From the human T2T-CHM13v2.0 reference genome, Homo sapiens: a stretch of 64,000 nt of DNA. Both the position numbers and the translations under genes were made by a program. The notes below the pieces were generated by a model. That model searched no databases. It was given only the letters and a program-made list of their open reading frames with translations, and was not told the origin of the DNA. Numbering within the stretch: position 1 is the stretch's first letter; every line of letters starts with the position of its first letter. The stretch is taken from the NCBI GenBank assembly GCA_009914755.4, contig CP086569.2:16448001-16512000 (forward strand), read 5' to 3'. Shown piece by piece: positions 5,722-64,000 of this stretch.

Positions 5722-5941
<220 letters not shown>

Positions 5942-7781: not shown

Positions 7782-8248
<467 letters not shown>

Positions 8249-8347
8249 GTAACCTAACTGCATTGCAGGGGCTGTGGTCTCCTTTGGGACAGCTTCTCAC
8301 CTCCAGGTATCTCCTGGTTCCTAAGGGTTTATTTTTTCCTGGTTCAG

Positions 8348-8457
8348 GAATGGCATCTTGGTCCTGCACTGGAGGTTTCCTCCTCACAGCCTCTTCGGGA
8401 GGACTTCCCACCAATGAGATTACCTGAAGGTTGAAGGCTATTCAACAGTGCTAATAG
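8348..8457 (+). pseudogene. Pseudo-exon ([33 protein letters not shown]... homologue).
   Basis: Acceptor ttcag|G and donor ATAG|gtatgg. It translates [27 protein letters not shown]. About 10 bp corresponding to the STS F-A-K-L codons are deleted, giving a frameshift and a TGA. Confidence 0.8.
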
Positions 8458-8639
8458 GTATGGGCATCTGAGGAACAGCAGGGAGGACTTGGACAAAGTT
8501 CGTAGAAGAGTGGGAGAGAGCATCATGACAATTATCTTAGGGATAACATCAGTGGTATACTTTGAACAATTTTAATTGGGAACAAAATTATTTCAATTCT
8601 AGGTTAAAACCACAATGAGCCTACCTGGACTACTTGAAT

Positions 8640-9762: not shown

Positions 9763-10094
9763 CCCTTGTAATTTTCTGTGGAGTGTTTCCTGCCCATTAA
9801 AAATGTTAGGTATTTTCTTTTGGGATTTTGATCCGGTTGGGCTTTTTTGTTTTTTTTTGTTTTGTTTTGTTTTGTTGGAATCACTAAATTACTTCCTATT
9901 TTCTGGTAGACTGAGTAGGTAATACCTTAGCATTTGTGGAAAAAGAAGTGAAAAACTCTAAGGTCCTATGAGCAGGAAGGTTAGCTTCATAAAGTAGTCA
10001 GAAAGAGCCTCCTTTTCAGTATGTGGGAAAAGAAGCTTGGATTGGAATCAGGGTATTTATTGGGACTGAAGTGATCCCCCATTTGTCTTCTCAG

Positions 10095-10512
10095 AGAAAT
10101 GGCACATTGGGATAAGCTGTCACAGCAAGACTGACTTCTTGCTTTTCATCATAGCTTTGATTATTTCTATGGGATGACCTCCTTAACCCATCTGAGAGAC
10201 AGCAAGGCAAGGGAGGGCAGTGTCTTCACCATGGGCTTCAAGAGACCGGTCTTCATCCCCCTGCAGATCATCAGAGTGGCCCTCCTTACCCTCACTGCAC
10301 TCAATTGTCTGGGGCTGCTCCACCTGCCGCTGGCCACTTTTTTTGGCCTTCTCTTCCTAGCAGCTCTGATCCTGATCTTTTCCTGGGCTTCTGTGATTAC
10401 TTCCAGTCCCTGAACTTCTTCATCATGAGGAACTACCAGATCATTCAGCAGCCCATGTCCTATGGCAATCTCACTCAGAGGCTAATGGTGGAGGCAGCCC
10501 AGTTCATATAGT
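10095..10512 (+). pseudogene. Large pseudo-exon (STS KWHLG...transmembrane-hairpin...AAQFIQ homologue).
   Basis: Acceptor tctcag|A at 10094. It translates [14 protein letters not shown], then frameshifts, then [68 protein letters not shown] second frameshift follows, then [43 protein letters not shown]. There is a TAG at 10509-10511. Confidence 0.85.
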
Positions 10513-11248
10513 GGTGGGTATTGCCTTGACTTCTGATACTGCCTGTAAAAAAAAATCATTCTGGGTTATTTTTTTGTGGAGCTGGAAGAACCAGCAGCGT
10601 TATTGTGCTAGCCACATTTTCCCTTCCATACCTAACATATTTCTTCATCCAGAGATCTCCATAGCACATGTTTAACAGCTTCAGAAAGGTATTGCAATGC
10701 AGTGTGCTCTCCTTAGGGTCTCTTTGCCAACATTCCCCACATCCTGGGCCAGAAAGTCCATGCCAAAATAATGTCTGCTGATGACAAAGGAGGTGTCAGA
10801 TAACCCGCTGGCCTTTACTCTTCAAATGTGGCCATCAAGAGAGGCAAGGTAATGGTTTATGTTTAGCTGAGAGATTGTCCTTGTGACATAAATAATGTGG
10901 AAAGATCCAAAATATTTTGGGCCAATCTCTGGGCAAACAAAACAAAACAAAGACCTCTGTAAGTAAATTGGGTGAAGTGAATGACATCTTTTGGGTCTCT
11001 TGAGTCCCACTGAGTTTATAGTTTTGGGGATTGCAATCTGTAAATGGAATAACTGTCAACAGAGGAGCAGAGAATATTCCTGAGTTATACAGGTATAAGT
11101 ATAATATATACGTATATTATAATACATAATATAGAGAGCATGAAAATACATAGTTAGATATGTAAAGGCTAATCAAGAATATTTGCTATTCAAAACACAC
11201 AAATTAAAGTATTTTTTCAACTTGTAACTGTAGAGGACAGGACATTGA

Positions 11249-25278: not shown

Positions 25279-25282
25279 GCAG

Positions 25283-25419
25283 GAACACTGAGACTCCTTT
25301 CCTGCTTGTCTTGTCCTACCTCCACGTGCACATGGCCTTGTTCTCCAGCAAGGACTTTGCCGGCAAAAGTAAACACGGAGTCTGTGGGGATGCTGTTGAG
25401 GAAATGGACTGTAGTGTGG
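25283..25419 (+). pseudogene. Pseudo-exon ([50 protein letters not shown] homologue). The ORF is intact within this exon.
   Basis: It is preceded by a 25-nt poly-T and the acceptor ttgcag|G, with donor GTGG|gtatgt. It translates [46 protein letters not shown] with no stop or frameshift. Confidence 0.85.
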
Positions 25420-25809: not shown

Positions 25810-28800
25810 TCTTTGCCCCCATGTGCATGTCTGCAGTTGCCAGTGGATACATTGCAGGGGAAGTCTAGTCTGTGGTCTGAAGATGGAAGAGATTCATGAA
25901 GGAGAGAAGACAAAACATTAGTCCTTATTATCCCTTATTCTATCAGCAATGAAATATGAACAATGTCTTGTCATTATCAGTTAGATGTCTGGATCTTAGG
26001 CAGATAAAAGATGAAGGGGGTGAAGGGGAGGTTAGAGACTTGAGGCTTCTTCAGTTTAGCATGTCAAAATGCCATCTTTGGGGATATCAGTTGCTGAGTC
26101 CCAGCATGTAACCTCATTTTGTGCTGCCAGTGGTCTTTGTGCAGCAGGTGATGTTCTCATCATTCCCATTCCACAGGAAAAAGGCAAGCGAGGCTTGCAA
26201 GTTAAGTACACCCACCTCAGGTTACAGAATTCATAATGGATGAGCATGTGTTCAAATGCAGGTGTCCCACCTAGAACCTGAAATCTACATGACTTTATTC
26301 TTTTTCTTCCCATATAACAAGAAAGTGTGTATTATGTCAGTGCAGTCAACAACGTATCTCCAGGAAAGAGCCAGTTCATTTATTAGTCATGTTGACTGGA
26401 TGTCTTCACACCTCCCTGTCTGTCTCTGATCTTTGCTTCCATAATCTTGTCTCCTTCACTTACTCTGACACACCCGCCTCCCTCTTATAAGGACACTTGG
26501 GATTATGTTCGGCCTGACTGGATAATCCCACATCATCTTCTCATCTCAAGATCATGAACTTAATCTGCAAATTCTTTTGCCCTGGGGTGTAACATGTTTG
26601 CCATGGGGTGTAACATCCCAGGGATTAGGATGAGGGTATTTTAGGGAGGTCATTATTCAGCCTACATGAACCCACAATACACTATTTCAAGCTGATGCTT
26701 CTTTTAACTTTTTTTTTTTTTTTTTCAGCATTAGCTGAGCCACTTTCATGGTGGATCAGGCATCATGCTAGTTATTGGAGATATTCAATAAGATCCAGAC
26801 TCTGGCTTGTACAGCGTATGCTTTGGTACATAAAACACACATATCTAACATCTAATATTTATACTTAGACATATCTAAATGTATGTAGACACACCTATCC
26901 TTTAATCTCTATATACATTAGGCCTAACTAAAGTCTAATATATACATACCTAATGTCTATGTTATGTGACAGACATTACATGACACACAGTATTGCTGAT
27001 TTCACAAAGTGATATGATACCCAAAATGATGTATTAGTTCTAAGGGTTGGAACTCTGCAGCCAAACCTGCAGTGGATGTGGGTTGAAGGTACAAGAAGAG
27101 ATGATGCCTTAGCCAAGAAGGTAGGGTGTATCAGAGCTTACATGCAAAGATATGAAAGAATAATATAGGGAATGCTTTTATCTAACAATTTGTTTAGAAA
27201 TGTTGATTATCTTCTGTGTTTCCGGCATTGGGCCAGACACAACACTAAACATCAAACATGGTGTCTGCCTTGAAGGAAGTCATGTTGCAGTAGGTGGGTG
27301 GGTAGGTGATGGCGTGAAGCCTAGAAGACTGGTGAAATTTGATAAAGGTGCTGACACTTGTATGCACAAGATACTAATGACACAAAGGGAAAGAGAGCCT
27401 CACTTGGCGGTGGTTCCCAGGAATGTTTGCAAAGGAGATGTGGCTAGAAATGAGGTCACCAGTGGGTCTGTGCATCTGCTCTTATTCTCCTTCTATCTGT
27501 TTCTGCCTTTCCAACCCCTTGCTCTCTTTCAACATGCTGGAAGTGAGAAGAAGCAAATAGCTTGTCATGCAAACTGCAATTTGCTCAGGAAGGCCAGACT
27601 ACACGACGCCTGAAGCAAAGAGAAAGAGTGCTCTGTAGCATATCCTTTGGGCCGCAGGTACCTTATGAAACGATATACTTCTATTTACATATGCATGTGC
27701 ACATCTGGAGTCCTGTGACAGGCTGAACAAATGGGGGAAGGAACTAACTCCTACATCTTTTTTGACCTGGCACCTAGCACAAAAAGATGCCTGTTGCATC
27801 TGGATGACCTTTATAGGCTTCTCAGACATCCTCCCAGCCTCTTCCTTTAGGTCTCATTGTTACATTGCTCAATGCATTATGCATTATCAATATGTAATGT
27901 GGGTTCTATTAATGAACAAATGTGTTTAATCTGAACAGGAATAACCCCAGTAAGCTATCACTCTTTCAGCCCTTCTCTGTGTACTACGTTATTTTAGAGT
28001 AACAAAAAGTGGAAACATGTACTTCTCATATATGAAGACTTGGTGTCACTGGGCTGAACTAGGATCCACTCAGCCAGTACAGTAGGGCCAAACATCCACA
28101 CCAAACTTTTGCAGTGGGGGAAAGGAAGGTATCTATTTGCAGAGTTGCAATCAAGTAGAATGAGGCAGCTCTCACTTAAGATTCTACTTCCCTGATGGTT
28201 TGCAAACAAAGGCTTTTAAAGGCTAGGAGGCAGAGGCTACAGGCAGTCATAAGTCAGTACATGGAGGTTATATGTTCGTTTGACCTCAAAAGGCAGGACA
28301 TCCCAAAGAAGGGCACCTGCAGGTCACAGGTGGCTTCAAAGCTTCCCTGATTTGCAGTTGGTTGAGGAAGTGAAGCTTTGTCTGAACGATTGCTTTGGTC
28401 AGCAAAAAACAAACAGGATATCTGGCCTGTGGTCATGGCTTCTTCCAGGACCCTTGAGAAGAAATTTGGAACAAAGAATGTCAATGAGAGTTCAGTCCTC
28501 AGTTCCTCCTCACCTCTGGTTTAAGTCCAAGCAGACTGCATTTTCCATTTGGTAGCATTCCAGGTTTCTGAAAAACAACCCCTGGACATATGTTAACATG
28601 TTATCTTTAATTATTATAGGGAGCCAAACATTCTGTGGCTCTAACTTCCTTGTCTGTGGCTTTACACTACCATTACCTTCTTGCTCATTTATCTTTTAAA
28701 GATAGCTAGGTGCCTGGAATTTTTCTTGAAGGAACTCAAGATTTTTCTCTACTTCCATTCTGGGGGGAGCCCAGAAGACCCCTAAGAGGGGTCCTTGCTC

Positions 28801-30405: not shown

Positions 30406-30420
30406 TTGCAATCCACTCAT

Positions 30421-31970: not shown

Positions 31971-32030
31971 TTTTTTTTTTCCTTTTGAGAAACTCTTGCT
32001 CTGTTTCCCAGGCTGGAGTGCAGTGCAGTG
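31971..32030 (-). mobile_element. Short Alu fragment.
   Basis: ttttgagaaactcttgctctgtttcccaggctggagtgcagtgcagtgacctc. Confidence 0.6.
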
Positions 32031-32136
32031 ACCTCTACATTTGAACCTACTGATTCCACTGCATTCCTAACTCAAATCTGTTTCCCTACTGAAATCTACA
32101 GGATTCATCAAATGACAGATTGGATAAAGAAAACGT

Positions 32137-32467
32137 GGTGCATGCATGCAGTGGCTCATGCCTGTAATCCCAACACTTTGGGAGGCCAAGGCAGGTGGAT
32201 AGCGAGGTCAGGAGATGGAGACCATCCTGGCCAACACTGTGAAACCCCATCTCTACTAAAAAAAAATAGAAAAAAAATTAGCCTGGCATGGTGGTTGGTG
32301 CCTGTAGTCCCAGCTACTCGAGAGGTTGAAGCAGGAGAATGGCATGAACCCGGGAGGCAGAGCTTGTAATAGCCGAGGTCGGGCCACTGCACTCCAACCT
32401 GGGCGACAGAGGGAGACCCTGTCTCAAAGAAAAAAGAAAAAGAAAGAAAGAAAAAGAAAAAAAGAAA
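32137..32467 (+). mobile_element. Alu inserted into an older L1 3' end. It is flanked by TSD aaaa[c/t]gtggt, and its tail has expanded into a (GAAA)-like run.
   Basis: gcagtggctcatgcctgtaatcccaacactttgggaggccaaggcaggtggatagcgaggtcaggag...cctgggcgacagagggagaccctgtctcaaagaaaaaagaaaaagaaag. Confidence 0.9.
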
Positions 32468-32470
32468 ATG

Positions 32471-32870
32471 TGGTATATATACAACATGGAATACTATGCA
32501 GCCATAAAAAGAATGAGATAATGTCTTTTGTAACTTGGATGGAGCTGGAGGATATTATTCTTAGCAAACTAATGCAGGGAAAAAAAACCAAATACCACAT
32601 GTTCTCACTTATAATGGGAACTAAATGATGAGAACTTATGAACTTGTAAAAGGAAACAACAGAGACTGGGATCTGTTTGAGCGGGGAGGGTGCGAGGAGG
32701 TTAAGGAGCATAAAAGATCACTGTTGAGGACTAGGCTTAATACCTGGGTGATTAAATAATTTGTACACCAAACCCCCATGACATGAGTTTACCTATGTAA
32801 CAAACTAACCTTCGCATGAATCCCCAAATCTAAAATAAAAGTTAAACATAAATAAAATTAAATATACCAG
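32471..32870 (+). mobile_element. L1 3'-end fragment (L1PA/L1PB-like). It continues from 32095-32136 on the far side of the Alu.
   Basis: tggtatatatacaacatggaatactatgcagccataaaaagaatgagataatgtcttttgtaacttggatggagctggagg...aaccaaataccacatgttctcacttataatgggaactaaatgatgagaac...tacctgggtgattaaataatttgtacaccaaacccccatgacatgagtttacctatgtaacaaact. Confidence 0.85.
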
Positions 32871-34849: not shown

Positions 34850-35150
34850 CAGGCATGGTGGCTTAGACCTGTAATCCCAGCACTTTGAGAGGCTGAGGTG
34901 GGTGGGTCACTTGAGCTCAGGAGTTGGAGATCAACCTGGGCAACATCGTAAGTCCTTGTCTCTACAGAAAATATGTAAAAATTAGCTGGCTGTTGTGTTG
35001 AACACCTATAGTCCCAGCTACTGGAGAGGCTGAGGTAGGAAGATCACCTAATCCCAGGAGTTGCAATCTGCAGTGAGCTATGATTACTCCACTGCACTCC
35101 AGGCTCATCAAAACAGTGAGAACCCTCTTTCTACAGAAAAAAAATAATAA
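34850..35150 (+). mobile_element. Alu.
   Basis: caggcatggtggcttagacctgtaatcccagcactttgagaggctgaggtgggtgggtcacttgagctcagg...ctgcagtgagctatgattactccactgcactccaggc. Confidence 0.9.
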
Positions 35151-35159
35151 TAATACATT

Positions 35160-35330
35160 AACCAGATGTGGTGATATACATCTGTAGTTCTAGCTAGTTG
35201 AGAGGCTTAGGTAGGAGAATTGCAATTCTGCGGTGAGCTATGATTGCATCACTGCACTGAACAATAGAGCGAGATCCTGTCCCCAACAAACAACAAACAG
35301 AGAAAAAACAAACAACAACAAAAAAAACCT
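35160..35330 (+). mobile_element. Alu right-arm monomer (FRAM-like) directly following the preceding Alu.
   Basis: accagatgtggtgatatacatctgtagttctagctagttgagaggcttaggtaggagaattgcaattctgcggtgagctatgattgcatcactgcactg..., A-rich tail. Confidence 0.75.
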
Positions 35331-35768
35331 CACTCCAATTTCTTCCCATACACTCAAAATACAATGTGAAGTCTGCTACCCCAACTGTACAGTTTTCTCC
35401 TCCTCTCTTCATGTTTTTGTCTGGGGCCCCCAACCCATTAATCTTGTTCTCACTTTAGGGTCTTTGTGTTGACAGTTTCTTCTGTTAGAAACTCATACTC
35501 ACATCTCATCTCTGGATGGATTTTCTCTTTCACTCATATGTTGCCTTTGTAAGGTCTCCCTGGACCACCAAATCAAAAGTCCTTGGCCTCTCCCACCACT
35601 CTATTCTAATTGCTTGCCTATCTGATATCTTACCTGTTTATTATTTTATTTGCTCATAGTTCTTCTCCTGTGGAAGCTGAGATCTGGGCTGCCTCATTCA
35701 CCACTGTGTCCTAGTGCCTTGAATACCCATGGAGTAAGCATTCAATAAGAATCTACTGAATGAATAGG

Positions 35769-36132
35769 GTTATAGTTTGGCTGCGTCCCCACCAAAATCT
35801 CACCTTGAATTATGGATCCCATAATCCCCACATGTTCTGGGAGGGACCCAGTGGGACGTAATTGAATCATGGGGGTGGGTCTTTCCAGCATTGTTCTCGT
35901 GATAGAAAATAAGTCTCATGAGATCTATTGGTTTTATAAGGGGCAGTTCCCCTGCATGTGCTCTCTTTCTTGCTGCCGTATAACACTTGTCTTTGTTCCC
36001 CCTTCAACTTCCACCATGATCATTAGCCCCTCTGCCATGTGGAACTGTGAATCCATTAGAACTCTTTTTCTTTATAAATTACCCACTCTTGGGTATTTAT
36101 TCATAACAGTATGAAAATGGACTGATATAAAC
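35769..36132 (+). mobile_element. Solo LTR of the ERVL-MaLR THE1/MST family.
   Basis: ggttatagtttggctgcgtccccaccaaaatctcaccttgaattatggatcccataatccccacatgttctgggagggacccagtgggacgtaattgaatcatggggg...ccatgtggaactgtgaatccattag...ctttataaattacccactcttgggtat... closely follows the THE1 LTR consensus. Confidence 0.8.
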
Positions 36133-38459
36133 AGTGAACCCTTCTCAGATTTCTCTTTCTCTGTCTCCTTCTCTCCTTGAGTATTTCCTCTCTTTTTCCT
36201 AAAATACTATCCTTTAGATGGGATCAGAATAACTTCCTTAAGATTTCCTTTTTGCTGAGTTTAGAGTTGTTTGCCTTTGCCTTATTGTAAAATATTTCCT
36301 GTATTCTCAGAAAAGAACAGTTAAAATTCTATCTCTGGCTTCATTTCCATCCCTCTCCCAAATCAAGGTCACTCTGAAGAAGGCTCTTCCTCCCTCTCTT
36401 TTTCTCTGCCTACAGACAAGTAATAAATGTCAGTGGAATGGATAGATGAACTCTATAGATGTCTTCTGCAGAAGTGTGGGGTGGGGGATCACATTTTTCA
36501 GAATGTTCAAGAATGCAGACTTTTTTTCCATGTGCAGAGAAATGCTTTTAAAATTCCCTGATGGCTGCGTGGAAGGAACTGCTCTTTGTGCATGTTTTTA
36601 CTTTAAACAAAAATTCCAAACACATGGCTTGGGTCCATATTGCTTATGGGTTGCTTCTTACAGTCACTGCTTTTGGCATCTCTTTCCCTCATGCAATAAC
36701 ACATCTTTCAGAGAGCAATTGATACTTTCATTATGAAAAAAAAATAGTAGTGACTGGCTCTAGTAGATTATTACAAGGTAGTTATGTTCAAATGATGTTG
36801 GCAAACATTGTCATTGGCTTCCCAAGAGTAGGCAAAGCTGCCGCTTCATGATAGTATCAGTATTTAGTCCTCCAGCAGGTATTCACAGCTTTTCACCTTT
36901 GAAAGAAGATCACATCAGTCTCATTTATCTGTGCATGCATTCAGTTGAATTTGACAGACATGCAATTATATATTGATTCTATAGAACATACCATGCATAT
37001 GCCTAGTTGCTGGGCTATATAGGATAATTTTGAAGGATTCTTTGAACTGATATCAACAGGTCATTTTTCCTTATTTTTGCCCTCATAATAATTGAGTAAT
37101 ATGTGGTAGAACCTAAAAAATCTCATTACATTACTCATCTGCAATTCATACGTTTTAGTCTCTGGCATGAATAAATCAAGGAACGTGAAAATGTAGCATC
37201 TTGGGTGAGAAAACATTTCGCATGAATTATCACATGCTTCAATGTGGTTTGCCTCAATTCAGAGAATCAGTGTTATTTCCAGGTAAGGAGATTCAAGGAG
37301 AAAAAATGAAAAACAGAATATTACATGAACCTCTGCCTAGATCAAGCATAAGAATGACTAGCATATGCTCTTGCCATTAACAGTTATTTGACCTGCTGTG
37401 TGGTAACATTCAGAAGGACAAAAATAGAAGCCTTGTTTGCAAGCAGCTGTTTCTGTCAAGTCTTGGAGTACATTGTAAGAGAATCCTCTCTATGCTTGCC
37501 TGGAGAGATTGAGTAACTCAGCCATCATCCTTCTATTATGGGAACACAACCACAACATGCCATCAAGATATTTAAAGTGTGAATTGGACAATTACTGTAA
37601 CAAATTTTAAACTTAAACCAGACCAAGACTTTTTCTCTGCTCATAAATTTTCAGGAAAAATAATTCATACTCCTTCACCTGTTTTTCTTTTTCTTTCCCC
37701 CATATTCCATTCTCCAACTTTCCTAAGTTTATTTCTACTTTGAAACCCAAATCAAAATCTATTTTGATTTTGGGCAGATTTTTACCTGGGCAGATTTTCC
37801 CAGGTAAAAGACATTTTCTGTTGGCACTCAATCAATTACCTGTGGATGTATCTTTTTGGGTTTTCTTTTTTGTGTGTGTGTGACAAGGTCTCACTTTTTC
37901 ACTATATATAGATATAGATATACAGATATAGGGGGAACTTCTTCCCTTATATATTGCCCCCAAGTGGGCAATTTGTGTATATCAAACCATTAATGAAACT
38001 ACTCCTTTTTCTTATATAGGAATCACTTGTTTTGTTGTTAAATTTAAAGTGAAAATGGTGTGAGTTTGATCAAGTAGAAGGATAAGCAGGTGAAAATTCT
38101 ATGAGTTTGATGGGTCAGAGGAAAAGAAGACTATAATTCACACATTATGATTTCTCACAAAGCTCTGCTTTCAACTGCCTGAATGAACGATGGCAAAGTA
38201 ATTAAACTTCTCATTTGTTGGTTGTGATCTCTGTGAAGCAGGAATCACAATGTCTCTCAGAGAATTACCTTCAGGTGATATTGAAAAGATAAAATAGGGG
38301 AAGAGTTTTAGCTTTCATAGGAGGCCATTACAGTATCTAGAACACATGATGTGAACTTCCATGATAATCTTCCCTAAGTGTCTGTACATATGGAACATAT
38401 GAATGTCTGCAAAAGGCAGAGCCTGCCAGCAAGAGAAATTCCATCTACAGTCTTCAGTT

Positions 38460-38950
38460 GTAAGAAATAATGTTTTAACTATTCACAATAGCAAGGACAT
38501 GGAGTTAACCAAAATACCCATTGACAGTGGACTGGATTAAAAGAAATGTGATACATACACACCAAGCAGTCATATAAAAGAAAGAGATCCTGTCCTTTGC
38601 AGCAAGATGGATGGAGCTGGAGGCCATTATATTAAAATAATTAATGCAAGATCCTAAAACCAAATACTGCATGCTGTCACTTATAAGGGGAAGCTAAATT
38701 TTAAGTACGCATGGACACAAGGAAGGAAACAACAGACCTTGGGGCCTACTTGAGAGTGGAGGGTGGGAGGAGGGAGAGGATTGAAAAACTACATATCAGG
38801 TACTATGCTGATTACCTGTGTGATGAAATAATCTGCACACCAAACTCCCAAGACAAGCAGATTACCTATATAAAAACCCTGCACTTGTACCCCTGAACCT
38901 AAAATAAATAAAAACAAATACATAAACAAATACATACATAGATAAATAAT
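38460..38950 (+). mobile_element. L1 3'-end fragment (ORF2 C-terminus plus 3' UTR, L1PA/PB-like).
   Basis: ttcacaatagcaaggacatggagttaaccaaaatacccattgacagtggactggattaaaagaaatgtgatacatacacacc...ccaaatactgcatgctgtcacttataaggggaagctaaattt...cacaaggaaggaaacaacagaccttggggcctacttgagagtggagggtgggagg... Confidence 0.85.
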
Positions 38951-40157
38951 GTAACATCTGAAAAACACACTGGAGCAGAATACAATAACAGGAGGCATTC
39001 CTGTAAAGATTAAAAAGAGAGAGAGAGAGATGAGCTTTTAACAATGGAGATTTGCTTCAGGATCCCTGAAACCTCTGTCTCTAGTAATTTACCTCCTAAA
39101 TTGACTTATTTCCACTGTGGCACTTATTTCCACTGTGACTCACACATGATACCCCTGTGAGGAATGAGTGTTTTTCCATTGGCTCCATTCTCACTTATCT
39201 CACACCAATTGTTTAAAACAGTCTCTTTCTTAGAGTAGCTGAACTTCAACTCCATTCCCTTTGGCCCCAGGCTAACTTCCTGATGGCTACTTCTATGCCA
39301 CTTAGCTCTATGCTCTGTTTGTTATAAAAGGTGAGGAAGCAGTGTTTATTCCCCAGCCATGGGTCACCTGCCCAGCTTGAGTGACTTCAGCCCTGGCCTG
39401 TCTGAGCCCTATACTGGAGCACTTGGTCTCTATCCCTCAACGGGAGGTGTTGGTCATATAAGGGCCACAGGAAAACTGCCTATCTTGCAGGTGGTAGGCT
39501 CAGTGCTTGTGATAATCGTTCCACATAATACTCACATGGAAACACTGTGGGAATGTGAGACACAGAAAGCTGAAGCTATTTTCTCAAGGGAACAGGGCTG
39601 ATGTGCCTGTTTCCTATGTCTGTTGTAATAGTTGACCATGAATTTAGTGGCTCAAAAAATGATTAAAAAAAAAAAAATTAGATTCAGAGAGTACGTGTGC
39701 GGGTGTGTTACATGAGTATATTAAGTGATGCTGAGGTCTAGAGTTCTAATGATACTGTCATCCAAGTAGTGAACATAGCACCTGATAGTTTTTCACTCCT
39801 TGACCACCTCCCACTTTCCCCCGAGTAGTTCCCAGTGTCTGTTGTTGCCATCTTTATGTTTATGAGTACCAAATGTTTAGCTCCCACTTATGAGAAAGAA
39901 CATGCAGCGTTTGATTTTCTGCTCCTCTTTGGGGGCTATTTTGAAATATGTCAGCGAAATGTATTTTGGGGTAAAGAACTTCAATTTCTGTCAGGACTTG
40001 CTATCTGTCACATTGGTATCTTACTGCTACAAAGAGTCTGTTTGGTCCCAGAGATCCCTAAGAATCTCTGGATCACACTTTGAGACTAGCCAGTGCTATG
40101 CTAAGAGTAGAGATTCTAGACCCCCAAAGCTTGAATTAATATACATATATATTTTCT

Positions 40158-40612
40158 TTTAGATGGGGATCTCATTCTGTCACCTAGGCTGGAGTGCAAT
40201 GGTGCGATCTCGGCTCACTGAAACCTCCAACTCCCAAGCTCAGATGATCCTCCCACCCCAACATCTTGATTAGTTGGGACCATATGTATGCATCACCATG
40301 CCCAGCTAATTTTTTTAGGAGGTTTTCTGGTGGTTTTTTTTTTTTTTTAAATTACACTTTAAGTTCTGGGACACATGCAGAACATGCAGGTTTGTTACAT
40401 AGGTATGTACATGCCATGGTTGCTTGTTGCTCCCATCAACAAATCATCAGGACATAGGCATGGCCAAAGACTTCATGACTAAAACACCAAAGCAATGGCA
40501 ACAAACACTAATTTTTTGTTTTGGGTAGAGACTGGGTTTCTGAGATCAAGCATTTCTCCTGACTCAGCCTCCCAAAGTCCTGGGATTACAGGCATGAACC
40601 ACCACACCCAGT
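40158..40612 (-). mobile_element. Alu split by a ~190-bp L1-derived insert at 40313-40502. The insert has a poly(T), an antisense L1 3'-end piece, then a sense ORF2 piece.
   Basis: Alu right arm in antisense at 40158-40312 ends ...catgcccagctaattttt. The Alu resumes at 40503 with ctaattttttgttttgggtagagactgggtttc...cctgggattacaggcatgaaccaccacacccag. The insert contains ttacactttaagttctgggacacatgcagaacatgcaggtttgttacatagg... and ...ggcatggccaaagacttcatgactaaaacaccaaagcaatggc. Confidence 0.75.
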
Positions 40613-43503
40613 GAGTTCATATTCTTGTATTCACTGCAGGATAAGTGTTGAACTTCCTGGGCCTTCACTCCTTCTCTGGAAAATGAATTCAGTAATAGCA
40701 CTGACTTTACAGGATTGATAGGATGATTAAAAACCTACTTGCCTGTAACGTGCAGTAAAAGAAGTCATGAATATTTGCCATTTTTCATTTTGCCTGCCAT
40801 ATTGAGATAGTAGTTACTTATATATTAGTATAATTCTTTCCTCTTCTACATTTAATACTCATCCAAGATAATAAAATCATAAAATTTGAGGGCTAAAGTG
40901 GAATTTTAAGATCTTCTACTCTAGTCAAATTATTATTTTTTTTCCACTCTAATGATGGAAAACATGGCAGCAATAACACACATAATGTTTTTTCTTATAT
41001 AAAGACAAAAATCCCATTCTCTCTTTCACCTTTTCATTGGCTGTGGTTGTTACCTTTGAAATGAAGCTTAATACTTCCTCAAGTAGCTAGAACAAAGTGT
41101 TCAGGCAATCTCATTCATTTCATTTCTTTCTCATGACCCATAAAATTGAAACCATAGACACTCTTCACTTTCATAATATCCTGGAATGGTTTTCCACCCA
41201 GTCGGGGGAAAGCAAGGTAAGGAAAAATTTCAGAGGCAAGAAAAAAAAAAAAAAGAAAATGTTGTTATAATGGAAAATCCCATCAAAGCTTTTCAGCAAA
41301 AGCATCTAGACAGTACCCTCACATCCGTATCCATCTTTAAATGTGATACACAGATCTCTGCCCTTTAGAAAATAGGCTTAACTCTTTCTTGTTCAGAGAG
41401 GTGCTAATAAGCTTTGTAATCTTCCTGATAGAACAATATTAAATTTGCATTTCTCAGGAGAAGAAACTCATGCAGAGGGTTGGATCCAAGCTGTTTGATG
41501 AGCACTTAACAAAGTGCCTTCACTCTTTATTCATTTTGTTTGAAGAAGAGAATTTATGTTCAGCAGACCCCCATTCTTCAAGAACTGTCCTCTAATTTTC
41601 AAAAAGGATTTTGGAACAAATGGGAGCCCTTCCTGGCCAATCAAAGTATGGTGGGAGATCAGAAGCCCTTGGATCTAGGGTTTCTACTTAAGTGAAAAGA
41701 AAGGTAGTCTGGAGGAACAAAGGAAAGATTTATTTTATTTTAGTTGCAGCATCTTAACCCTGCAGTGAGAATAGTTCTCTAATTCAACCCCATGGTATGC
41801 TTATGTAAGACTTGTCTCTGGTAGTGAACTGTTTCTTCATATGCATGTTAGTGATTCATTTTCGTTCACTGGCATGACTTATCAGAACTTTCAGTGCCCA
41901 TCATCCTGGGCATATTCAGAAAAATTATTTTCCCCAGGTCTCCAAATAAGCTGATATTGGAAATAAAGGGCAGCCTTTTGGGTTATAAAAGGCAGGCAAC
42001 ACGGGCTTATGAAAAAGAATAATCAAATACCTAAATGCATTAATTCATTAACATGAAAATTCTTTCTGTGGGTCTCATCTTTGCAAGCAGATACAATATT
42101 GTCATAGTATGAGTATGACCATGCCCCTTCCTAACATGTTATTAACATCATTAATAAAGAATGGTAACAAGCCATAGTTGGTTACATCTTTTGTAAAATA
42201 TCAAAATTTTAACAATAGACCCTTCAGATGGGACAGAGTGCTGGCAACCTCAATAATCAAATTTTAGAGGTGAAATATTTAGATCTTACAGTCCATAATT
42301 AAAATAAAAATTGACTTTTTTTTTAAGTTACAAAAATAATGTTTTTAATTCTCAACATACTTTTGTCTAATAGAGACAAGGAATGGGCTTAGCTGACTTC
42401 TCCCAGTAACTTTTGCTGGTTTATAGCTGAGCCACTAGAGAAGACCTTTTCGATAGAGTAATACAGACAAAAAAGTCAGTGAGCTATATCTGGTTCACAT
42501 CAGTTTTGCAGAATCAAAGGTGACTCTCTTCATGGGAACAACCTCAAGTTTGTGTGTGCAACCACTTATAACTGATCTTGCTTTCTGTTCAACAAAGGGC
42601 AGAAGGTTTAATGTTTACAAATGGAAACATATTTTTCTAAATTGTGAAAATAACTTTCTTATACTTAAGAGTCCCTATAGTTTATTACATATATATGTAC
42701 TTTCTCCTAAAAACCTTTCCTTAACTATGACTGTCTACATTGAAATCACTGTCATTTTTATATCGAACAAGTTGCTCACAAACATTGTGCCCCAAATAAG
42801 CTTTTCTATTAGTCTCCAAGACCTCCCTTTCTGTATTACCCCCAAAACATTTTCCTTTTCTTATGATCCTTCAGTCCTTCTAGAGTTGGCCAGGCAAAGG
42901 GCGTGTGGGAAGGACATTTCATGTGGAGGGATGAGGATGCTGAAAGCCTCAGAACTGAGAGAGAGCACAGCACATTCTTGGAGGATTGATGTGAATAGGG
43001 TTCAGGAAACGTTTCCAGAACATGTCCTTTTTAATTATGTAAAAATTATCTCTATGGTATTTAACTTGACCTGAAATTTTGACACAAGGGTCCCTTGCAA
43101 ATAACCTGTTAATTTAATAGTACTACCATTATTGTCAGTCAGGAACCAAAGGAAAATAATTTTACCTTCCAAATTAACAACATTCCCAAACACCCACTTT
43201 TCCACCAAGAGCCATGTGGACAGTAGGACAGACAACACATCCTGTTTTTTAATATTGGCTGTTATTTCAAACATGCCACAAAAACTTCAATTAATTTGCA
43301 AGAAAAAGCCCTTTAGACTGTTTACAGAGAAAACAGCAATGTTTGGGGTCACTTTGAAAGTGGATTGGCCCATCTCCCCCAGAACCCAACATTCTAAAAG
43401 CATTTTTGTACTAGCAGCATTAATGGAAATGTGCTGTCCTCTGGGTTGTTACCATGGTTAACTGCAAATCCCACAAATGGTTTAAAAGAATCCCAAATAT
43501 TTC

Positions 43504-49480
<5,977 letters not shown>

Positions 49481-51745: not shown

Positions 51746-52319
51746 GATCATTGATGGACATGATCTGATGCCCCTACTTGAAGGAAAATACCAGTACTCT
51801 GATCATGAGTTTCTCTTCCGTTACTGAAATGCCCACTTAAACGCTGGTGCCCTTGGAACAGTGAGTAAACTGACCTTTCCATGCTTCTCATGCTTCATGC
51901 AACCTATGCCATGGGAATACATAAAACTAAAATGCAGCTCTGCTTGATAGAGGCCAACAGGTTCCTCAGTGTGTGACCATACTTTGCTTTGTCCTGTTCT
52001 CCCTCTTCCTCCTCTCTTCTCCTTCTTGTTCAGGTATGATGATGTCAGGGGTGCTGTGTTATTCACCCACCTGAACGACACCCACAGCTCCTCTTTACCA
52101 GCAGAGGAAGTCCCAAGTTCTCAACAGGGTACTGTGGCTGGTCATTTATTGCATGCACAACTGCCCAGCCTCACTACCTGGCACTCCTCTCACGCTGAGG
52201 CCAGCAGCCCCTGTACTCTGTGCATTGCTGTGCTTATACTTGCAGGTTCTTCTCCTAGAAGGTCTCCTCACCTTGTCCTTCTTGGAGGGTCCTACTCAAT
52301 GCCCCCCAGTCCCTGCTGA
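51746..52319 (+). pseudogene. Terminal pseudo-exon ([18 protein letters not shown]...C-terminus homologue). The 3' boundary is approximate.
   Basis: Acceptor cctcag|G. It translates [34 protein letters not shown]... in one frame. It continues with diverged homology to the STS C-terminus (…DTHSSSLPAEEVPSSQQGTVAGHLLHAQLPSLTTWHS, against …[37 protein letters not shown]). There is a TGA at 51825-51827 and a TGA/TAG pair further on. Confidence 0.65.
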
Positions 52320-53694: not shown

Positions 53695-54034
<340 letters not shown>

Positions 54035-58002: not shown

Positions 58003-58259
58003 ATGACTGTGGGAGGCTGCGGGAACAGCTAGCTGTCTGTCCTCCCAGTGTAAAACCCCATCTCTCATAAAAATACCAAAACTAGCCAGGTGCCTGTATT
58101 AAAGCTATTAATACAGGCAGGTGCCTGTAATCCCAGCTTCTCAGGAGGCTGTAACAGGACAATTGCTTGACCCTGGGTGGCAGAAGTTGTAGTAAGCCAA
58201 GATCGTGCCACTGTACTCCAGTCTGAGTGACAGAGCAAGATTCCATCTCAGAAAAAAAA
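58003..58259 (+). mobile_element. Alu, 5'-truncated, with a small internal duplication (caggtgcctgta x2).
   Basis: ...ctgtgggaggctgcggg...gtaaaaccccatctctcataaaaataccaaaactagccaggtgcctgta...caggtgcctgtaatcccagcttctcaggaggctg...gccaagatcgtgccactgtactccagtctgagtgacagagcaagattccatctcag. Confidence 0.8.
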
Positions 58260-59603
58260 TCATTATTATATTTCTAGCATTACATACATGTTAAAAGTTA
58301 AGCAAATTGATTACTGAGGTATACGTAGGCATCACTTTACAAGGTCAGCAACCCTGCAGGAAAAGCAAAGTTGCAATCTACATATCATTGTTACTAAGGA
58401 GGTCTTTTTTTTTTTCCAATAAAGAAGCTCAGTTCTTAGAATTTTCTGAAGGCACACAATGAAGAATGGAGGGGAAAAAGCACACACCAAACAAATATTT
58501 CACTTATTGCAGGAATCTGATTGCATCCAGGGAAATGTTTACTTAGAATATGTTAATGCAAAGTTAAAATAAAATGTTCCTTGGCAATTAAAAATGCTGT
58601 GCACTAATACATGCTTTCTAATGTGATTCAATTCAACAATGTAGTGAATGCTTACTACATTTTCAGCTTGATGTCAAGCAATGGGGAATACAAGTTCCAG
58701 TTCTGCAAAGATTCATCAACTTTCTTAGCTCAAGAGAGAGGCTGAGAAATGCAGGGAGGAATAAGACATAAAATACCTCCAACCTCCATGATCCGAGAGT
58801 GGGGAAAGGCCTGATTATAACCCATCAGGCACACTTCCTAATGCCTTTTTAGGGCCTACAAAAATGTTTTAATTTCTTTTATAATCAGAAGAAGAGAAAA
58901 TGAACATTGGGGATTGGAGATCATATTGTCATTTGGAGCAACATTGTCATAAAATGTAATGTTAATATGTTTTTATATAATATATTTTGATATTAAAATA
59001 TATTAATATATTTTGCCTTTGTGACCCACGGAAGTCTTACTGGGCCCTGGGGACAGGACCCTATCCTGGTGAAGCAGCTGCTTTGCTCTACAAACACCTG
59101 GGGCAGAAATTTGGTTTGAGAAATATTGTTCTGTCTTTACTTTTCTTTCAATCAGATTCCTTAGGAAGACCAAGCCAGTGTCAGAACAAACCTCTGAAGC
59201 AGTAAGAAGCTGGAGTGACAAGAGCATACTATGCATACTAGGATCAGCTCTGGATTGACTGAGCAAATTTAATAAAATGTCAAAACATGTCCATAAAGGT
59301 GCTGCTGGTGCGTGCATGCCCATAGGGAGCTAATATGCTCAGGAAGAAAGGTGTTGATCCCATGGAGACTTTTAAAAGCTAAAGCCTTGTTGCCTTCTCT
59401 TTAGCGCCCAGAGAATGTGGTATGTGATGCGAATGCTCAAAACCTCTTAAATCATAGCTGTCTAACCTCTGTGTAACTCACCTCTATCCCAGGCTTCATG
59501 AACAAAGATTCACCACTTGACCAAATGTTAGCCAAGCTCCTCAACCTTTTCCCAGGCCCATCTGTGCACTTCCTTGTAAAATCCAATTTTAGCAAGAAGC
59601 TTG

Positions 59604-59734
59604 TTAGAAAAACATGATCGTCTCCATGTATAAATAATTTAATTTGAAACCTTGGATTCTCAAATCCTCAGTGAAGCAAATTTTATATCCCAAACCTCGA
59701 TATAAAAGTGACTGTGTTTGCTTACATAGTAAGC
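59604..59734. repeat. Left arm of a ~128-bp inverted-repeat pair (about 90% identical to the right arm).
   Basis: ttagaaaaacatgatcgtctccatgtataaataatttaatttgaaaccttggattctcaaatcctcagtgaagcaaattttatatcccaaacctcgatataaaagtgactgtgtttgcttac(atagtaagc). Confidence 0.85.
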
Positions 59735-60485
59735 TCCTCAGCCTCCTCTGCCCTCCAGGGGATGTGTGGTCACCTGGTCAGCCTTCTAGAATCCTGTTAG
59801 GTCAGTTCAGCTGTAATCCTGCTGGACTTTGGTGTTTCCTCTTGGTAGTTTCCATCCACTGATGGGCACCCTGCTCCCTGGCTATGAATCCCCACTTTCC
59901 CATGATGTATTAAGAGCTGAGCCCAATCTCTTCCCCCACTGTAAGCCCCCACTGCTGCAGTTGTCATGATGGTCCTGAATGAAGTCTTCCTTACTGTGTT
60001 TTAATAACTAGCACTGAATATTTTTTTCTTTAACATCATCCATGAGAACTTAAAACCTGCTGGGACGGCATAACTCTGTGGTGTCTTTAGAGCTCAGCTT
60101 TGTTTGTCCCTGAGCATTCTTGGTTTTCTGACACCGTGAACCTGTTTAATGTTGTGAGAGATCACTTGAGCCAATGTTACTTAATACCATCTCTTTGTGA
60201 CTTTGAATAAGGTAATTGTAATGTACCAATATTTTACTTTGTCAAGTATTATCTTAATGGAAGCCTTCCCAATGAAGGAAACAACAGCTTTCCCAGTTAG
60301 AACGTAAGCAGTTTAAAAACTACCCAAGTCTTTCTGAAAAGGAAACATTCCCATGTAACTATCAGTTTTCTAAGAACTTCAAGGGCCTTTCATATAGAAG
60401 ACATTCAAGTTCGGGGGTTCATTAGACAATGGTTCTACTTATTAAGTTCAAATCCTCTAAATGATTTTTCAGTAAGTTTATCTTC

Positions 60486-60787
60486 TTTTTTTTTTTTTTT
60501 TTTTTTTTGACAGAATCTCACTCTGTCACCCAGGCTGCAGTGCAATGGTGTGATCTCGGTTCACTGCAACTTCCACCTCTCTGATTCAAGAGATTCTCCC
60601 ATCTCCGCCTCCTGAGTAGCTGGGACTACAGGTGTGCACCATGACTCCATGCACACTTTTGTATTTTCAGTAGAGATAGGGTTTCATCATGTTGGCCAGG
60701 CTGGTCTCAAACTCCTGACCTCAGGTGATCTGCTCGACTCAGCCACCCAAAGTGCTGGGATTACAGACATGAGCCACAGAACCTGAC
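60486..60787 (-). mobile_element. Alu, located inside the spacer of the inverted-repeat pair.
   Basis: (T)23 then gacagaatctcactctgtcacccaggctgcagtgcaatggtgtgatctcggttcactgcaac...ctgggattacagacatgagccacagaacctgacc. Confidence 0.9.
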
Positions 60788-60862
60788 CATGATAAGTTTG
60801 TCTTACCTGGCAAATACATCACATCTTCAAAGTAGCAAATTGTACAATTTCTTATATATATT

Positions 60863-60990
60863 TTACATAGTAAGCAAACGCAATCACTTTTATATAGTGG
60901 TTTGGGATATAAAATTTGCTTTACTGAGCATATGAGAATCCAAGGTTTCAAATTAAATTATTTATACATAGAGATGATCATGTTTTTCTA
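60863..60990. repeat. Right arm of the inverted-repeat pair. It is the reverse complement of 59604-59734.
   Basis: The reverse complement reads ttagaaaaacatgatcatctctatgtataaataatttaatttgaaaccttggattctcatatgctcagtaaagcaaattttatatcccaaaccactatataaaagtgattgcgtttgcttac. Confidence 0.85.
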
Positions 60991-61891
60991 AAGAAAATAT
61001 TGTAAATGAGCATGTTTTTATAAATATGTGCTTTGAATTGCTAAAATTTATACAAATTTTACAATGTATACAAAAATAAATACATCAAAGTACTGTATTT
61101 ACAAAGATACACATATTTTCCAGTGGCAACGCCCCAGTGGTGATTACATTTGGAATAGAAGCTATCTCATGAATCAAATATACAGATTTATCCCAGTGAG
61201 TTCTGAGCAAGATGATATTTTCCTATTTCTCTTATAGTAATGTTGGCACCATATGAACCACTTGGGCCTGACCATAACTTTCCGTGATAATCCACTATGA
61301 TGGGGCTCCCCAGTCCCTACACCATAGACTCCTGCCAGTCTGTGGCCTGTTAGGAACTGGACCACTAAGTGGGAAATGAGCAGAGGGCAAGTGAGCAAAG
61401 CTTCACCTGTATTTACAGCTGTTCCCAATCACTCACATTACCACCTGCACTCAGCCTCCTGTCAGATGAACGACTGCATTAGATTCTCATAGGAACATGA
61501 AGCCTATTGTTACCTGCAAATATGAGGGAGCTAGGTTGTGCACTACTTATGAGAATCCAATGCCTAATAATCTGTCACTGTCTCCTATCACCCCCAGATG
61601 GGACTGACTAGATGCAGGAAAACTAGCTCAGGGCTGCCACTGATTCTACATTATGGTAAGTTGTATATTTATTTTATTATATATTACAATGTAATTACAA
61701 ATGTAATGTGCTTGAATTAACCTGAAACCATCCCTCACCCCTACCACCCCTCGTTCATGGAAAAATTGTTTTCCATGAAATCAGTCCCTGTTGCCAAAAA
61801 ATGTGGGGGCTGCTACTCTTTGGGTACTCTCTGCTTGTTGCCACTGAAAATCCAGATAAGAGATCAGAGGAAGAGGCCCTAATGAATGAAT

Positions 61892-64000
61892 TGTGATATA
61901 TTACTCCATTCTCATTCTGCTAATAAAGACATACTTGAGAAATTTATAAAGGAAAGAGGTTTAATTGATCAGTTTAGCATGGCTGCAGAGGCCTCAGGAA
62001 ACTTACGATTATGGCAGAAGGAGAAGCAAACACATCCATCTTCACATGGCAGCAGGAAGGAGAAGTGCAGTGCAAAGGTGGGGAAAAGCCCACTGTAAAA
62101 CCATCACATCTCATGAAAACTCACTCACTATCATGAGAACAGCAGGGGCATATCTGCCCCCATGATTCAATTACCTCCCACCAGGCCCCTCCCACAACAT
62201 GGGGATTATGGGAACTACAATTCAAGATGAGATTTGGGTGGGAACACATCATTCTGCCCCTGGCACCTGACAAGTGTCATGTCCTTTCATTTCAAAACAC
62301 AATCATGTCTTCCCAAAAGTCCTCCAAAGTCTTAACTAATTCCGGCATTAATTCAGAACTCCAAGTCCAAAGCCTCATATCAGACAAGACAAAGTCCTTC
62401 TGCCTATAAGCCCGTAATATTACTTTCTACATAAAATGGGGATACAGGGATTGGATAAATATACCCATTTCAAATGGGAGAAATTAGCCAAAATAAAGAG
62501 GCTACAGGCCCCATGCAAGTCCAAAATTCAGTAGGGCAGTAATTAAATCTTAAAATTCCAAAATAATCTCCTTTGACTCCATTGTCTCACATCTGGGTCA
62601 CACCAATGCAAGATATCGGCTTCCATGATATTGAGCAGCTCCACCCTTGTGACTTTGCAGGGTACAGCCCCTGTCTTGGCTGCTTTCATACACTGGTGTG
62701 GAATGTCTATGGCTTTTCCAGGTGCATGGTGCAAGCTGCTAGTGGATGTACCATTCTGAGGTCTGGAGGATGGTTGCCTCTTTTCACAGCTCTACTAGGC
62801 AGTGTTCCAATGGGGACTCTGTTTGGGGGCTCCCACCCCACATTTCCCTTATGCACGACCCTAGCAGAGGTTCTCCATGAGGGCTCTGCTACTGCATCAC
62901 ACCTCTGCCTGGATATCCAGGGCTTTTCATACATCTTCTGAAATCTAGGTGGAGGTTCTGAAACCTCAATTCTTGCATTCTATTCACCTGCAGGACTGAC
63001 ACCACATGGAGGCTTGAGACTTACACCCTCTGAAGCCATGGCCCAAGCTGTACTTTTGCTCCTTTTTACCACAGTTGAAACAGCACAAGTTGGAACAAAG
63101 CACCAAGTCCAGAGGCAGCACAAAGCAGTGGGAAAAGCATTTTTTTCCTCCTATACCTCCAGACCTGTGATGGGAAGACTACCATCAAGGTTGCTGAGAT
63201 GGCCTGGAGACATTTTCACCATTGGCTCCTCATTAATTTTGCAAATTTCATCAATGAGTTTGAATTTCTTCCCAGAAAATGGTTTTCTTTCTTTTCTACT
63301 GCATCATCAGGCTTCAAATTTTCTAAACTTTTATGCTCTGTTACTTCTCGAATACTTTGCTGCTTAGAAATTTCTTCTGCCAGATACCCTTAAATTTTCT
63401 CTCTTAATTTCAAAGTTCCAAAGATCTCTAGGGCAGGGGCAGAAAGCTGCCAGTCTCCTTGCTAAAGTACAGCAAGAGTCACCTTTACTCAAGTTCCCAA
63501 CAAATTCTTCATCTCCATCTGAGACCACCTCAGCCTGAATATTATTGTCCATATTACTATCAGCATTTTGGTCAAAGCCATTCAGCAAGTCGCTAGGAGG
63601 CTCTAAACTTTCTCACATCTTCCTGTCTTCCAAACCCTCCAATTCTCTAGGCAGTTCCAAAGTTTCCCACATCTTCTTGTTTCCTTAGCCCTCCAAGTCT
63701 CTAGGAAGTTCCAAGGCTATCCCACATTTTTCTGTCTTCTTCTGAGCCCTGAAAACTGTTCCAACCTCTGCTTCTTACCCACTTCCAAAGTCACTTCCAT
63801 ATTTTTGGGTACCTTTACAGCAGCACCCCACTACCAGCTACTAATTTATTGTATTATTCAGTTCTCATGCTGATAATAAAGACATACCCAAGACAGGGTA
63901 ATTTATAAAGGAAAGAAGTTTAATAGACTCACAGTTCCTTAAGGATGGGGAGGCTTCAGGAATCTTATGATCATGGCAGAATGGGAAGCAAACATGTCCT
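61892..64000 (-). mobile_element. ERVL-MaLR (THE1/MST-type) proviral element: 3' LTR 61892-62250, internal region 62250-63858, 5' LTR from 63859 and cut off by the window end.
   Basis: Both LTRs in antisense begin ...tcattctgctaataaagacatac[tc]...aatttataaaggaaaga[ga]gtttaat.gact... The first ends ...caattcaagatgagatttgggtgggaacac. The LTRs are separated by about 1.6 kb, the typical length of a MaLR internal region. Confidence 0.75.

What the first reader, a model, noticed from the sequence alone, without database searches (positions are those of the whole stretch)
37470..43047. Homologues of the STS middle exons (QILNLLDELR...[23 protein letters not shown]...TVAKLAGAPLPED) were not confidently found; two weak candidates.
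Between the exon at 25283-25419 and the terminal exon at 51746, the coding equivalent of about 100 STS residues is not evident by eye. Candidate A is about 37470-37578 and ends ...caagatatttaaag|tgtga. In two frames it gives L-L-E / LERLSNSAIILL, weakly resembling LLDELRLANDTLIYF. Candidate B is 42883-43047, behind a polypyrimidine/cag acceptor. It reads ...ARQRACGKDISCGGMRMLKASELRESTAHSWRIDVNRVQETFPEH, against STS ...[43 protein letters not shown]. The shared GK, GGxR, IDxxxxxxxFP spacing and the DNA strings tgggaagga and agattgatg support it. Both are inference. They could be chance matches, and the segment may instead be deleted or too diverged to recognise.
Basis: inference. Interest (0 to 1): 0.5.

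Follow-up and report, generated by a model that had tools for sequence, protein, structure and literature searches.

The report
STSP1 lacks exons 7 and 8
The window is the known human Y-linked steroid sulfatase pseudogene STSP1; its missing middle exons were removed by two clean deletions, and the two proposed exon remnants are ordinary intron sequence that matches the protein only by chance.

Summary
The window is human STSP1, the unprocessed Y-linked pseudogene of steroid sulfatase (STS). It carries the published 13-bp deletion c.353_365del. Published Y-specific primers match it exactly and give the expected 158-bp and 116-bp products.

tblastn, blastn and nhmmer with a real human STS cDNA, and a 120-orthologue profile search with filters off, all find nothing. 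The same methods find exons 6 and 9 at E 1e-17 to 1e-35.

Alignment to two intact New World monkey STS genes (Cebus, Saimiri) shows collinear intron homology of about 83%, broken by clean deletions:
- window 26401/26402: 25-28 kb missing, including exon 7
- window 40043-40046: 2.6 kb missing, including exon 8
- window 58052-58261: about 12 kb missing, including the exon 10 coding sequence

Candidates A and B are orthologous to intron 7 and intron 8 of the functional gene (88% and 86% identity). They score no better than shuffles or than the rest of the interval. The "terminal exon" at 51746 is exon 9.

Loss of similarity to exons 7, 8 and 10 in STSP1 is already published, so this is ordinary.

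The parts
5725..5875 (+). STS exon 2 homologue (start codon and signal peptide), disabled by a W17 stop
   Evidence: blastn of human STS cDNA, 90.7%; tblastn residues 4-51 with an in-frame stop
8125..8458 (+). STS exon 3, the 102-bp intron 3 and exon 4 as one block. Stops at Y87 and R90. The 13-bp deletion (CTTTGCTAAGCTT, c.353_365del) lies at 8423/8424
   Evidence: Base-level alignment to cDNA L001. The deletion equals the STSP1 signature in PMC9317125. The STS154/116 primers give the Y-sized 116-bp product at 8384-8499
10093..10514 (+). STS exon 5 homologue, with frameshifts and stops
   Evidence: blastn 84.4%; tblastn needs three frames
25283..25419 (+). STS exon 6 homologue; reading frame intact
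   Evidence: blastn 92.8%; nhmmer E 1.4e-35 and profile E 1.5e-27
26401..26402 (+). Deletion junction 1. Intron 6 is joined to intron 7 and exon 7 is lost. 27,610 bp are missing relative to Cebus and 25,125 bp relative to Saimiri. 2-bp TG microhomology
   Evidence: Collinear chains; junction alignment
37470..37578 (+). Candidate A: single-copy intron 7 sequence, not an exon remnant
   Evidence: 87.9% identical (E 2e-34) to Cebus L006 62276-62382, which is 8.4 kb downstream of exon 7 and 9.5 kb upstream of exon 8. Scores equal chance
40043..40046 (+). Deletion junction 2. Intron 7 is joined to intron 8 and exon 8 is lost. 2,651 bp are missing relative to Cebus and 2,643 bp relative to Saimiri. 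CCAG microhomology. This is where exon 8 would have been
   Evidence: Collinear chains; junction alignment
42883..43047 (+). Candidate B: single-copy intron 8 sequence, not an exon remnant
Evidence: 85.5% identical (E 1e-40) to Cebus L006 77663-77799, which is 5.6 kb downstream of exon 8. Scores equal chance
51746..51860 (+). STS exon 9 homologue (not the terminal exon). C446 stop, a small internal deletion, gtgagt donor retained
   Evidence: blastn 87.5%; nhmmer E 4.8e-22; exon boundaries mapped in Saimiri; sequence
58052..58261 (+). Deletion junction 3. About 12.06 kb are missing relative to Saimiri (the rest of intron 9, the exon 10 coding sequence and about 2.5 kb after the stop codon). 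It is replaced by 210 bp that include an Alu fragment (58116-58259)
   Evidence: blastn against Saimiri L008: homology ends at 58051 = L008 98385 and resumes at 58262 = L008 110447; the exon 10 CDS is at L008 107562-107927
58262..62739 (+). Homology to the region about 2.5-5.7 kb downstream of the STS stop codon
   Evidence: Collinear HSPs at 75-83% with L008 110447-113596

Best explanation
The window is human STSP1, the unprocessed (intron-containing) Y-linked pseudogene of the X-linked steroid sulfatase gene. [quoted passage not shown]

STS exons 7 and 8 (residues 321-418) are neither hidden nor diverged. Each was removed by its own clean interstitial deletion. One deletion of about 25-28 kb has its junction at 26401/26402. 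The other, of about 2.6 kb, has its junction at 40043-40046. A third deletion of about 12 kb, at 58052-58261, removed the exon 10 coding sequence.

The junctions have only 2-4 bp of microhomology and lie in unique sequence. That suggests end-joining or replication slippage rather than recombination between repeats; this step is inferred.

Candidates A and B are ordinary intron 7 and intron 8 sequence inherited from the ancestral gene. Their resemblance to the STS peptide is chance.
For: Identity of the window:
- The 13-bp deletion equals c.353_365del, reported for STSP1.
- The Y-specific primer pair STS158Y matches with 0 mismatches and gives 158 bp. STS154/116 gives the Y-sized 116 bp. The X-only primers do not match.
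- Retained exons are 84-93% identical to human STS cDNA and carry stops and frameshifts.

Absence of the exons:
- tblastn at E<=1000 with word size 2, blastn with word size 7, nhmmer --max, and an orthologue-profile hmmsearch --max find nothing for exons 7, 8 or 10.
- The same searches find exons 6 and 9 at E 1e-17 to 1e-35.

Deletions:
- Collinear chains against two independent functional genes give the same window junctions.
- The junctions are resolved to the base.
- No unique piece of the deleted intervals lies elsewhere in the window.

Candidates:
- Both are orthologous to introns and score at chance level.

Literature:
- PMC9317125 Fig. 7 reports no similarity of STS exons 1, 7, 8 and 10 with STSP1, and these exons did not amplify in males whose X-linked STS is deleted.
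Against: The reference introns come from New World monkeys, not from the human X-linked gene. Deletion sizes are therefore in monkey coordinates, and some size differences could reflect monkey-lineage insertions. The Cebus interval contains a 1.3-kb assembly gap.

Chromosomal location cannot be read from the window itself.

The deletion mechanism is inferred from junction anatomy only.
Confidence: 0.97

Rival explanations
1. Candidate A and/or candidate B are highly diverged remnants of STS exons 7 and 8.
For: The quoted peptide motifs and the 9-mer tgggaagga do exist at those coordinates. B is preceded by a pyrimidine-rich stretch and an ag.
Against: Scores are at or below the shuffle means and below the median of the surrounding interval.

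Both segments align at 86-88% to intron positions of Cebus STS, which has intact exons 7 and 8 kilobases away.

The DNA and peptide matches in B use different frames, and the second DNA string is absent.

The shared 9-mer is not conserved in Cebus.
Confidence: 0.01
2. Exons 7 and 8 are still present somewhere in the window but have diverged beyond recognition.
For: None beyond the absence of hits, which by itself is ambiguous.
Against: Neutral intron sequence on both sides of each junction still aligns at about 83% to monkeys that are more distant than the human X copy. Exons would therefore be at least as recognisable.

The window has only 2 bp or fewer between the flanks at each junction, leaving no room for an exon.

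The profile search with filters off returns nothing.
Confidence: 0.01
3. The missing exons are an assembly artefact of the window (collapsed or mis-joined sequence) rather than a real feature of the Y chromosome.
For: Not directly testable from one sequence. Y-chromosome assemblies are error-prone in repeats.
Against: The junctions lie in unique, non-repetitive sequence.

An independent publication reports the same pattern: no similarity to exons 7, 8 and 10, and no PCR product from these exons in males whose X-linked STS is deleted.

Published primer products have the expected sizes.
Confidence: 0.01

Closest known systems
Human STSP1 (steroid sulfatase pseudogene 1, Yq11.21; ENSG00000227166)
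   Same: Intron-containing collinear homology to STS. The 13-bp exon 4 deletion c.353_365del. No similarity to STS exons 7, 8 and 10. Exact matches to Y-specific primers with the right product sizes. STS exons 3 and 4 form one continuous block.
   Different: No difference detected. The base-resolution positions of the three deletion junctions, expressed relative to functional primate genes, were not stated in the papers I could read. The original description (Yen et al., Cell 1988, recalled from memory) was not available to check.
Functional X-linked STS (human cDNA L001; Cebus L006; Saimiri L007/L008)
   Same: Same exon order and intron positions, including the 102-bp intron 3. About 83% nucleotide identity through the introns and 84-93% in the exons.
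   Different: The window lacks exons 7, 8 and the exon 10 coding sequence through three deletions. It has stops or frameshifts in exons 2, 3, 4, 5 and 9, so it cannot encode a sulfatase.

Membership tests
Human STSP1 (Y-linked unprocessed STS pseudogene) | Unprocessed: homology to STS extends through the introns, in gene order | tested here: met
   Collinear chains covering about 44 kb at 83% identity with Cebus and Saimiri STS genes, from intron 1 to past the 3' end
Human STSP1 (Y-linked unprocessed STS pseudogene) | 13-bp deletion in exon 4, c.353_365del (p.F118X) | tested here: met
   The window lacks CTTTGCTAAGCTT at codons 117/118. Right-shifted under HGVS rules this is c.353_365del, as reported in PMC9317125
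Human STSP1 (Y-linked unprocessed STS pseudogene) | No similarity to STS exons 7, 8 and 10 | tested here: met
   No hits by tblastn, blastn, nhmmer or profile search. Deletions mapped. Published statement in PMC9317125 Fig. 7
Human STSP1 (Y-linked unprocessed STS pseudogene) | No similarity to STS exon 1 | not testable with these tools
   Homology to intron 1 runs to window base 1. I expect exon 1 to lie upstream of the window (in the human gene intron 1 is about 35 kb, from memory). No reference sequence containing exon 1 was obtained
Human STSP1 (Y-linked unprocessed STS pseudogene) | Amplified by Y-specific primers with the published product sizes, and not by X-specific primers | tested here: met
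   In-silico PCR: STS158Y gives 158 bp with 0 mismatches. STS154/116 gives 116 bp. The STS89, STS95 and STS120 pairs give no product
Human STSP1 (Y-linked unprocessed STS pseudogene) | Located at Yq11.21 | not testable with these tools
   No human genome assembly is searchable here. Location is inferred from the sequence signatures above
Exon 7/8 coding sequence of STS (sulfatase domain, residues 321-418), for candidates A and B | Similarity to residues 321-418, or to cDNA 1080-1373, above chance | tested here: not met
   Protein and DNA Smith-Waterman scores are at or below shuffle means. The candidates rank at or below the median of the interval. No profile hit
Exon 7/8 coding sequence of STS (sulfatase domain, residues 321-418), for candidates A and B | Positional orthology to exon 7 or exon 8 of a functional STS gene | tested here: not met
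   A aligns to Cebus intron 7 (62276-62382) and B to Cebus intron 8 (77663-77799). The exons are at 53723-53881 and 71897-72073

The most novel reading that the evidence does not exclude
The three exon-removing deletions have base-resolved junctions with 2-4 bp of microhomology. They might be datable, lineage-specific events that record the stepwise decay of an X-degenerate Y gene. Separately, the intronic blocks at A and B (86-88% against an 83% background) might be weakly constrained non-coding elements of the STS locus. Neither idea is excluded, and neither is supported beyond the anatomy.
Probability: 0.05. Interest if true: 0.2.

Novelty: already known. Interest (0 to 1): 0.06.

Why it matters
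It matters mainly as housekeeping. It closes the open question in the first-stage reading of this window: the middle exons are deleted, not hidden. It removes two false exon candidates and corrects the exon numbering, since 51746 is exon 9.

It has some practical relevance. STSP1 is a documented trap in molecular diagnosis of X-linked ichthyosis and is used as a sex-typing marker. Knowing exactly which STS exons have no Y counterpart (7, 8 and 10), and where the junctions lie, helps with primer and probe design. The biology itself, the decay of an X-degenerate Y gene by deletions and point mutations, is well established.

Tried and rejected
Reference loci that could not be obtained:
- The macaque and Aotus STS gene models span 243 and 426 kb, so no DNA was served.
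- The Nomascus isoform and the truncated Aotus isoform were not on record.
- No catarrhine X-linked genomic reference could therefore be used, and New World monkey genes were used instead.

Readings I dropped:
- I first read the 6-kb L1 at 43.5-49.5 kb as a Y-lineage insertion because Cebus lacks it. Saimiri has a collinear L1 at 82% identity and Cebus has an N-gap at that spot, so I withdrew that reading.
- I considered arguing that candidate B is impossible because its peptide match straddles the exon 7/8 boundary. Mapping put the boundary at codon 365, so B's match lies almost wholly within exon 8 residues. I dropped the argument.
- I looked for transposed or inverted copies of the deleted intervals elsewhere in the window and found only L1 and other repeat matches.
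- I considered Alu-Alu recombination as the cause of deletions 1 and 2. It is not supported, because both junctions lie in unique sequence. Deletion 3 has an Alu fragment in its filler, but no matching Alu sits next to the right-hand breakpoint in Saimiri, so that case is unresolved.
Full report
**What was checked first.** My recalled human STS protein (583 aa) was verified as identical to PDB 8eg3_A, apart from the catalytic Cys75 position, which is deposited as Ala. It was then used as the query.

**Where the STS exons are.** tblastn of STS against the whole window, at E<=1000 and word size 2, finds the following:

| STS residues | Window position |
|---|---|
| 4-51 | 5732-5875 |
| 51-117 | 8125-8424 (includes a short intron) |
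| 134-273 | 10097-10571 (frameshifts and stops) |
| 274-320 | 25281-25419 |
| 419-452 | 51744-51845 |

Nothing for residues 321-418 or 458-583 exceeds noise.

A real human STS cDNA was recovered from a Logan transcript contig. This is L001, which retains the 102-bp intron 3. blastn with word size 7 gives the same picture:

| Exon | Identity to human cDNA |
|---|---|
| 2 | 90.7% |
| 3 + intron 3 + 4 | 88% |
| 5 | 84.4% |
| 6 | 92.8% |
| 9 | 87.5% |

There is no match for cDNA 1080-1373 (exons 7+8) or 1478-2219 (exon 10).

nhmmer --max, and a profile built from about 120 STS orthologues and searched with all filters off against the six-frame translation, return no hit for exons 7+8. Exon 6 scores E 1.4e-35 (nhmmer) and 1.5e-27 (profile). 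Exon 9 scores 4.8e-22 and 1.9e-17.

**The candidates against chance.**
- Protein Smith-Waterman against residues 321-418: A = 22 (300 shuffles: 22.7 +/- 3.9) and B = 23 (25.7 +/- 4.1).
- DNA Smith-Waterman against the real exon 7+8 cDNA: A = 16 (15.6 +/- 2.1) and B = 18 (17.1 +/- 2.2).
- Among all equal-length slices of 25420-51742, 62% score at least as well as A and 70% at least as well as B. Exons 6 and 9 score 206 and 137.
- The 9-mer tgggaagga is at 42906 and is in the cDNA. It is one of 90 shared 9-mers between exons 7+8 and the interval; shuffled exons give about 57.
- agattgatg is absent. Only gattgatg occurs, at 42984, and the spacing is 78 nt instead of 65 nt.
- tgggaagga would encode W-E-G only in frame 2, whereas the peptide resemblance was read in frame 0.

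**What the window is.** PMC9317125 describes STSP1, an unprocessed STS pseudogene at Yq11.2. [quoted passage not shown]
- The window lacks CTTTGCTAAGCTT at codons 117/118, which is c.353_365del after HGVS right-shifting.
- Primers published in PMC9187067 were tested in silico. The Y-specific pair STS158Y matches with no mismatch and gives 158 bp at 7108-7265. STS154/116 gives the Y-allele size of 116 bp at 8384-8499. The X-only pairs do not amplify.

The window is therefore human STSP1. Chromosomal position itself could not be tested.

Two functional STS genes with their introns were retrieved: Cebus imitator (L006, 96.9 kb) and Saimiri boliviensis (L007/L008, no assembly gaps). Their exons were located with tblastn. 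The best collinear blastn chains cover about 44 kb at about 83% identity, from intron 1 to downstream of the gene. There are three discontinuities, at the same window positions in both references where both could be compared:

| Window junction | Cebus L006 | Saimiri | Exon lost |
|---|---|---|---|
| 26401/26402 | 26771 -> 54382 (27,610 bp) | L007 27694 -> 52820 (25,125 bp) | exon 7 |
| 40043-40046 | 71186 -> 73838 (2,651 bp) | L007 69480 -> 72124 (2,643 bp) | exon 8 |
| 58051 -> 58262 | locus ends too early | L008 98385 -> 110447 (about 12.06 kb) | exon 10 coding sequence, plus about 2.5 kb after the stop |

- At the third junction the window holds a 210-bp filler that includes an Alu fragment.
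- Base-level alignments show junction 1 as ...GACTGGA[TG]TCTTCACACC... and junction 2 as ...GTCTGTTTGGTC[CCAG]AGATCCC..., that is, 2 and 4 bp of microhomology in unique sequence.
- No unique piece of the deleted intervals is found elsewhere in the window.

**What A and B really are.**
- Candidate A (37472-37578) aligns at 87.9% (E 2e-34) to Cebus 62276-62382, deep in intron 7.
- Candidate B (42883-43020) aligns at 85.5% (E 1e-40) to Cebus 77663-77799, in intron 8.
- In that gene the real exons 7 and 8 lie at 53723-53881 and 71897-72073.
- Each candidate has a single hit, so both are single-copy intron sequence inherited from the ancestral gene.
- The true former site of exon 8, at about 40044, lies between the two candidates. 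That of exon 7 is at about 26402, outside the finding's range.

**Exon numbering.** Mapping the human cDNA onto Saimiri puts the exon 7/8 boundary in codon 365 and the exon 9/10 boundary in codon 460. The exon starting at 51746 ends at 51860, before a retained gtgagt donor. It is exon 9, not the terminal exon.

**Mechanism.**
- Shown: the gene is disabled by three exon-removing deletions, the 13-bp frameshift, further frameshifts in exon 5, and stop codons at W17, Y87, R90 and C446.
- Inferred: because the junctions are short-microhomology joins in unique sequence, the first two deletions probably arose by end-joining or replication slippage rather than by repeat-mediated recombination. They would have been fixed on the non-recombining Y after the gene was already under no constraint.

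**Verdict.** The observation that the middle exons cannot be found is correct and is explained by deletion. The two candidates are chance matches in introns. The overall structure is already published, so the finding is ordinary.

Noticed in passing
window 51746-51860 and 58052-58261: The exon the finding calls 'terminal' is exon 9. The real terminal exon's coding part was removed by a third deletion of about 12 kb. Its junction is filled with 210 bp that include an Alu fragment (58116-58259). Homology to the region downstream of the stop codon resumes at 58262.
   Followed up: yes
window 43666-48627 (minus strand; insertion gap 43503-49479 relative to Cebus): A nearly full-length L1, with a 541-aa ORF2 fragment (44638-46263) plus endonuclease and C-terminal pieces. 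It is also present at the collinear position in Saimiri at 82% identity, so it predates the X/Y split. Its apparent absence from Cebus coincides with an N-gap in that assembly.
   Followed up: partly
window 29064-31192: An L1 ORF2 fragment with a 5' inversion: the minus strand runs 29064-30404 and the plus strand from 30405. It is absent from both New World monkey genes at this position, so it was inserted in the catarrhine or Y lineage.
   Followed up: partly
window 31912-35774: A 3.9-kb stretch absent from both monkey references. It contains Alu-like repeats at about 32143-32470 and 34840-35300. The rest is uncharacterised.
   Followed up: no
L001 (human Logan transcript) 277-378; window 8241-8340: The human STS transcript contig retains the 102-bp intron 3, which truncates its ORF to residues 93-583. 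In STSP1, exon 3, this intron and exon 4 are annotated as a single exon, according to PMC9317125.
   Followed up: partly
window 25283-25419: Exon 6 is the best preserved part of the pseudogene: 92.8% identity to the human cDNA, with an open frame and both its ag acceptor and gt donor. It is preceded by an unusually long T run (about 25250-25278).
   Followed up: no
window 22328-23097 (minus strand) against Saimiri L008 77496-77981: Two low-copy matches (71-80%) between sequence just downstream of Saimiri exon 8 and window intron 5, flanking an Alu. This is probably an old interspersed repeat. It does not include exon 8.
   Followed up: no
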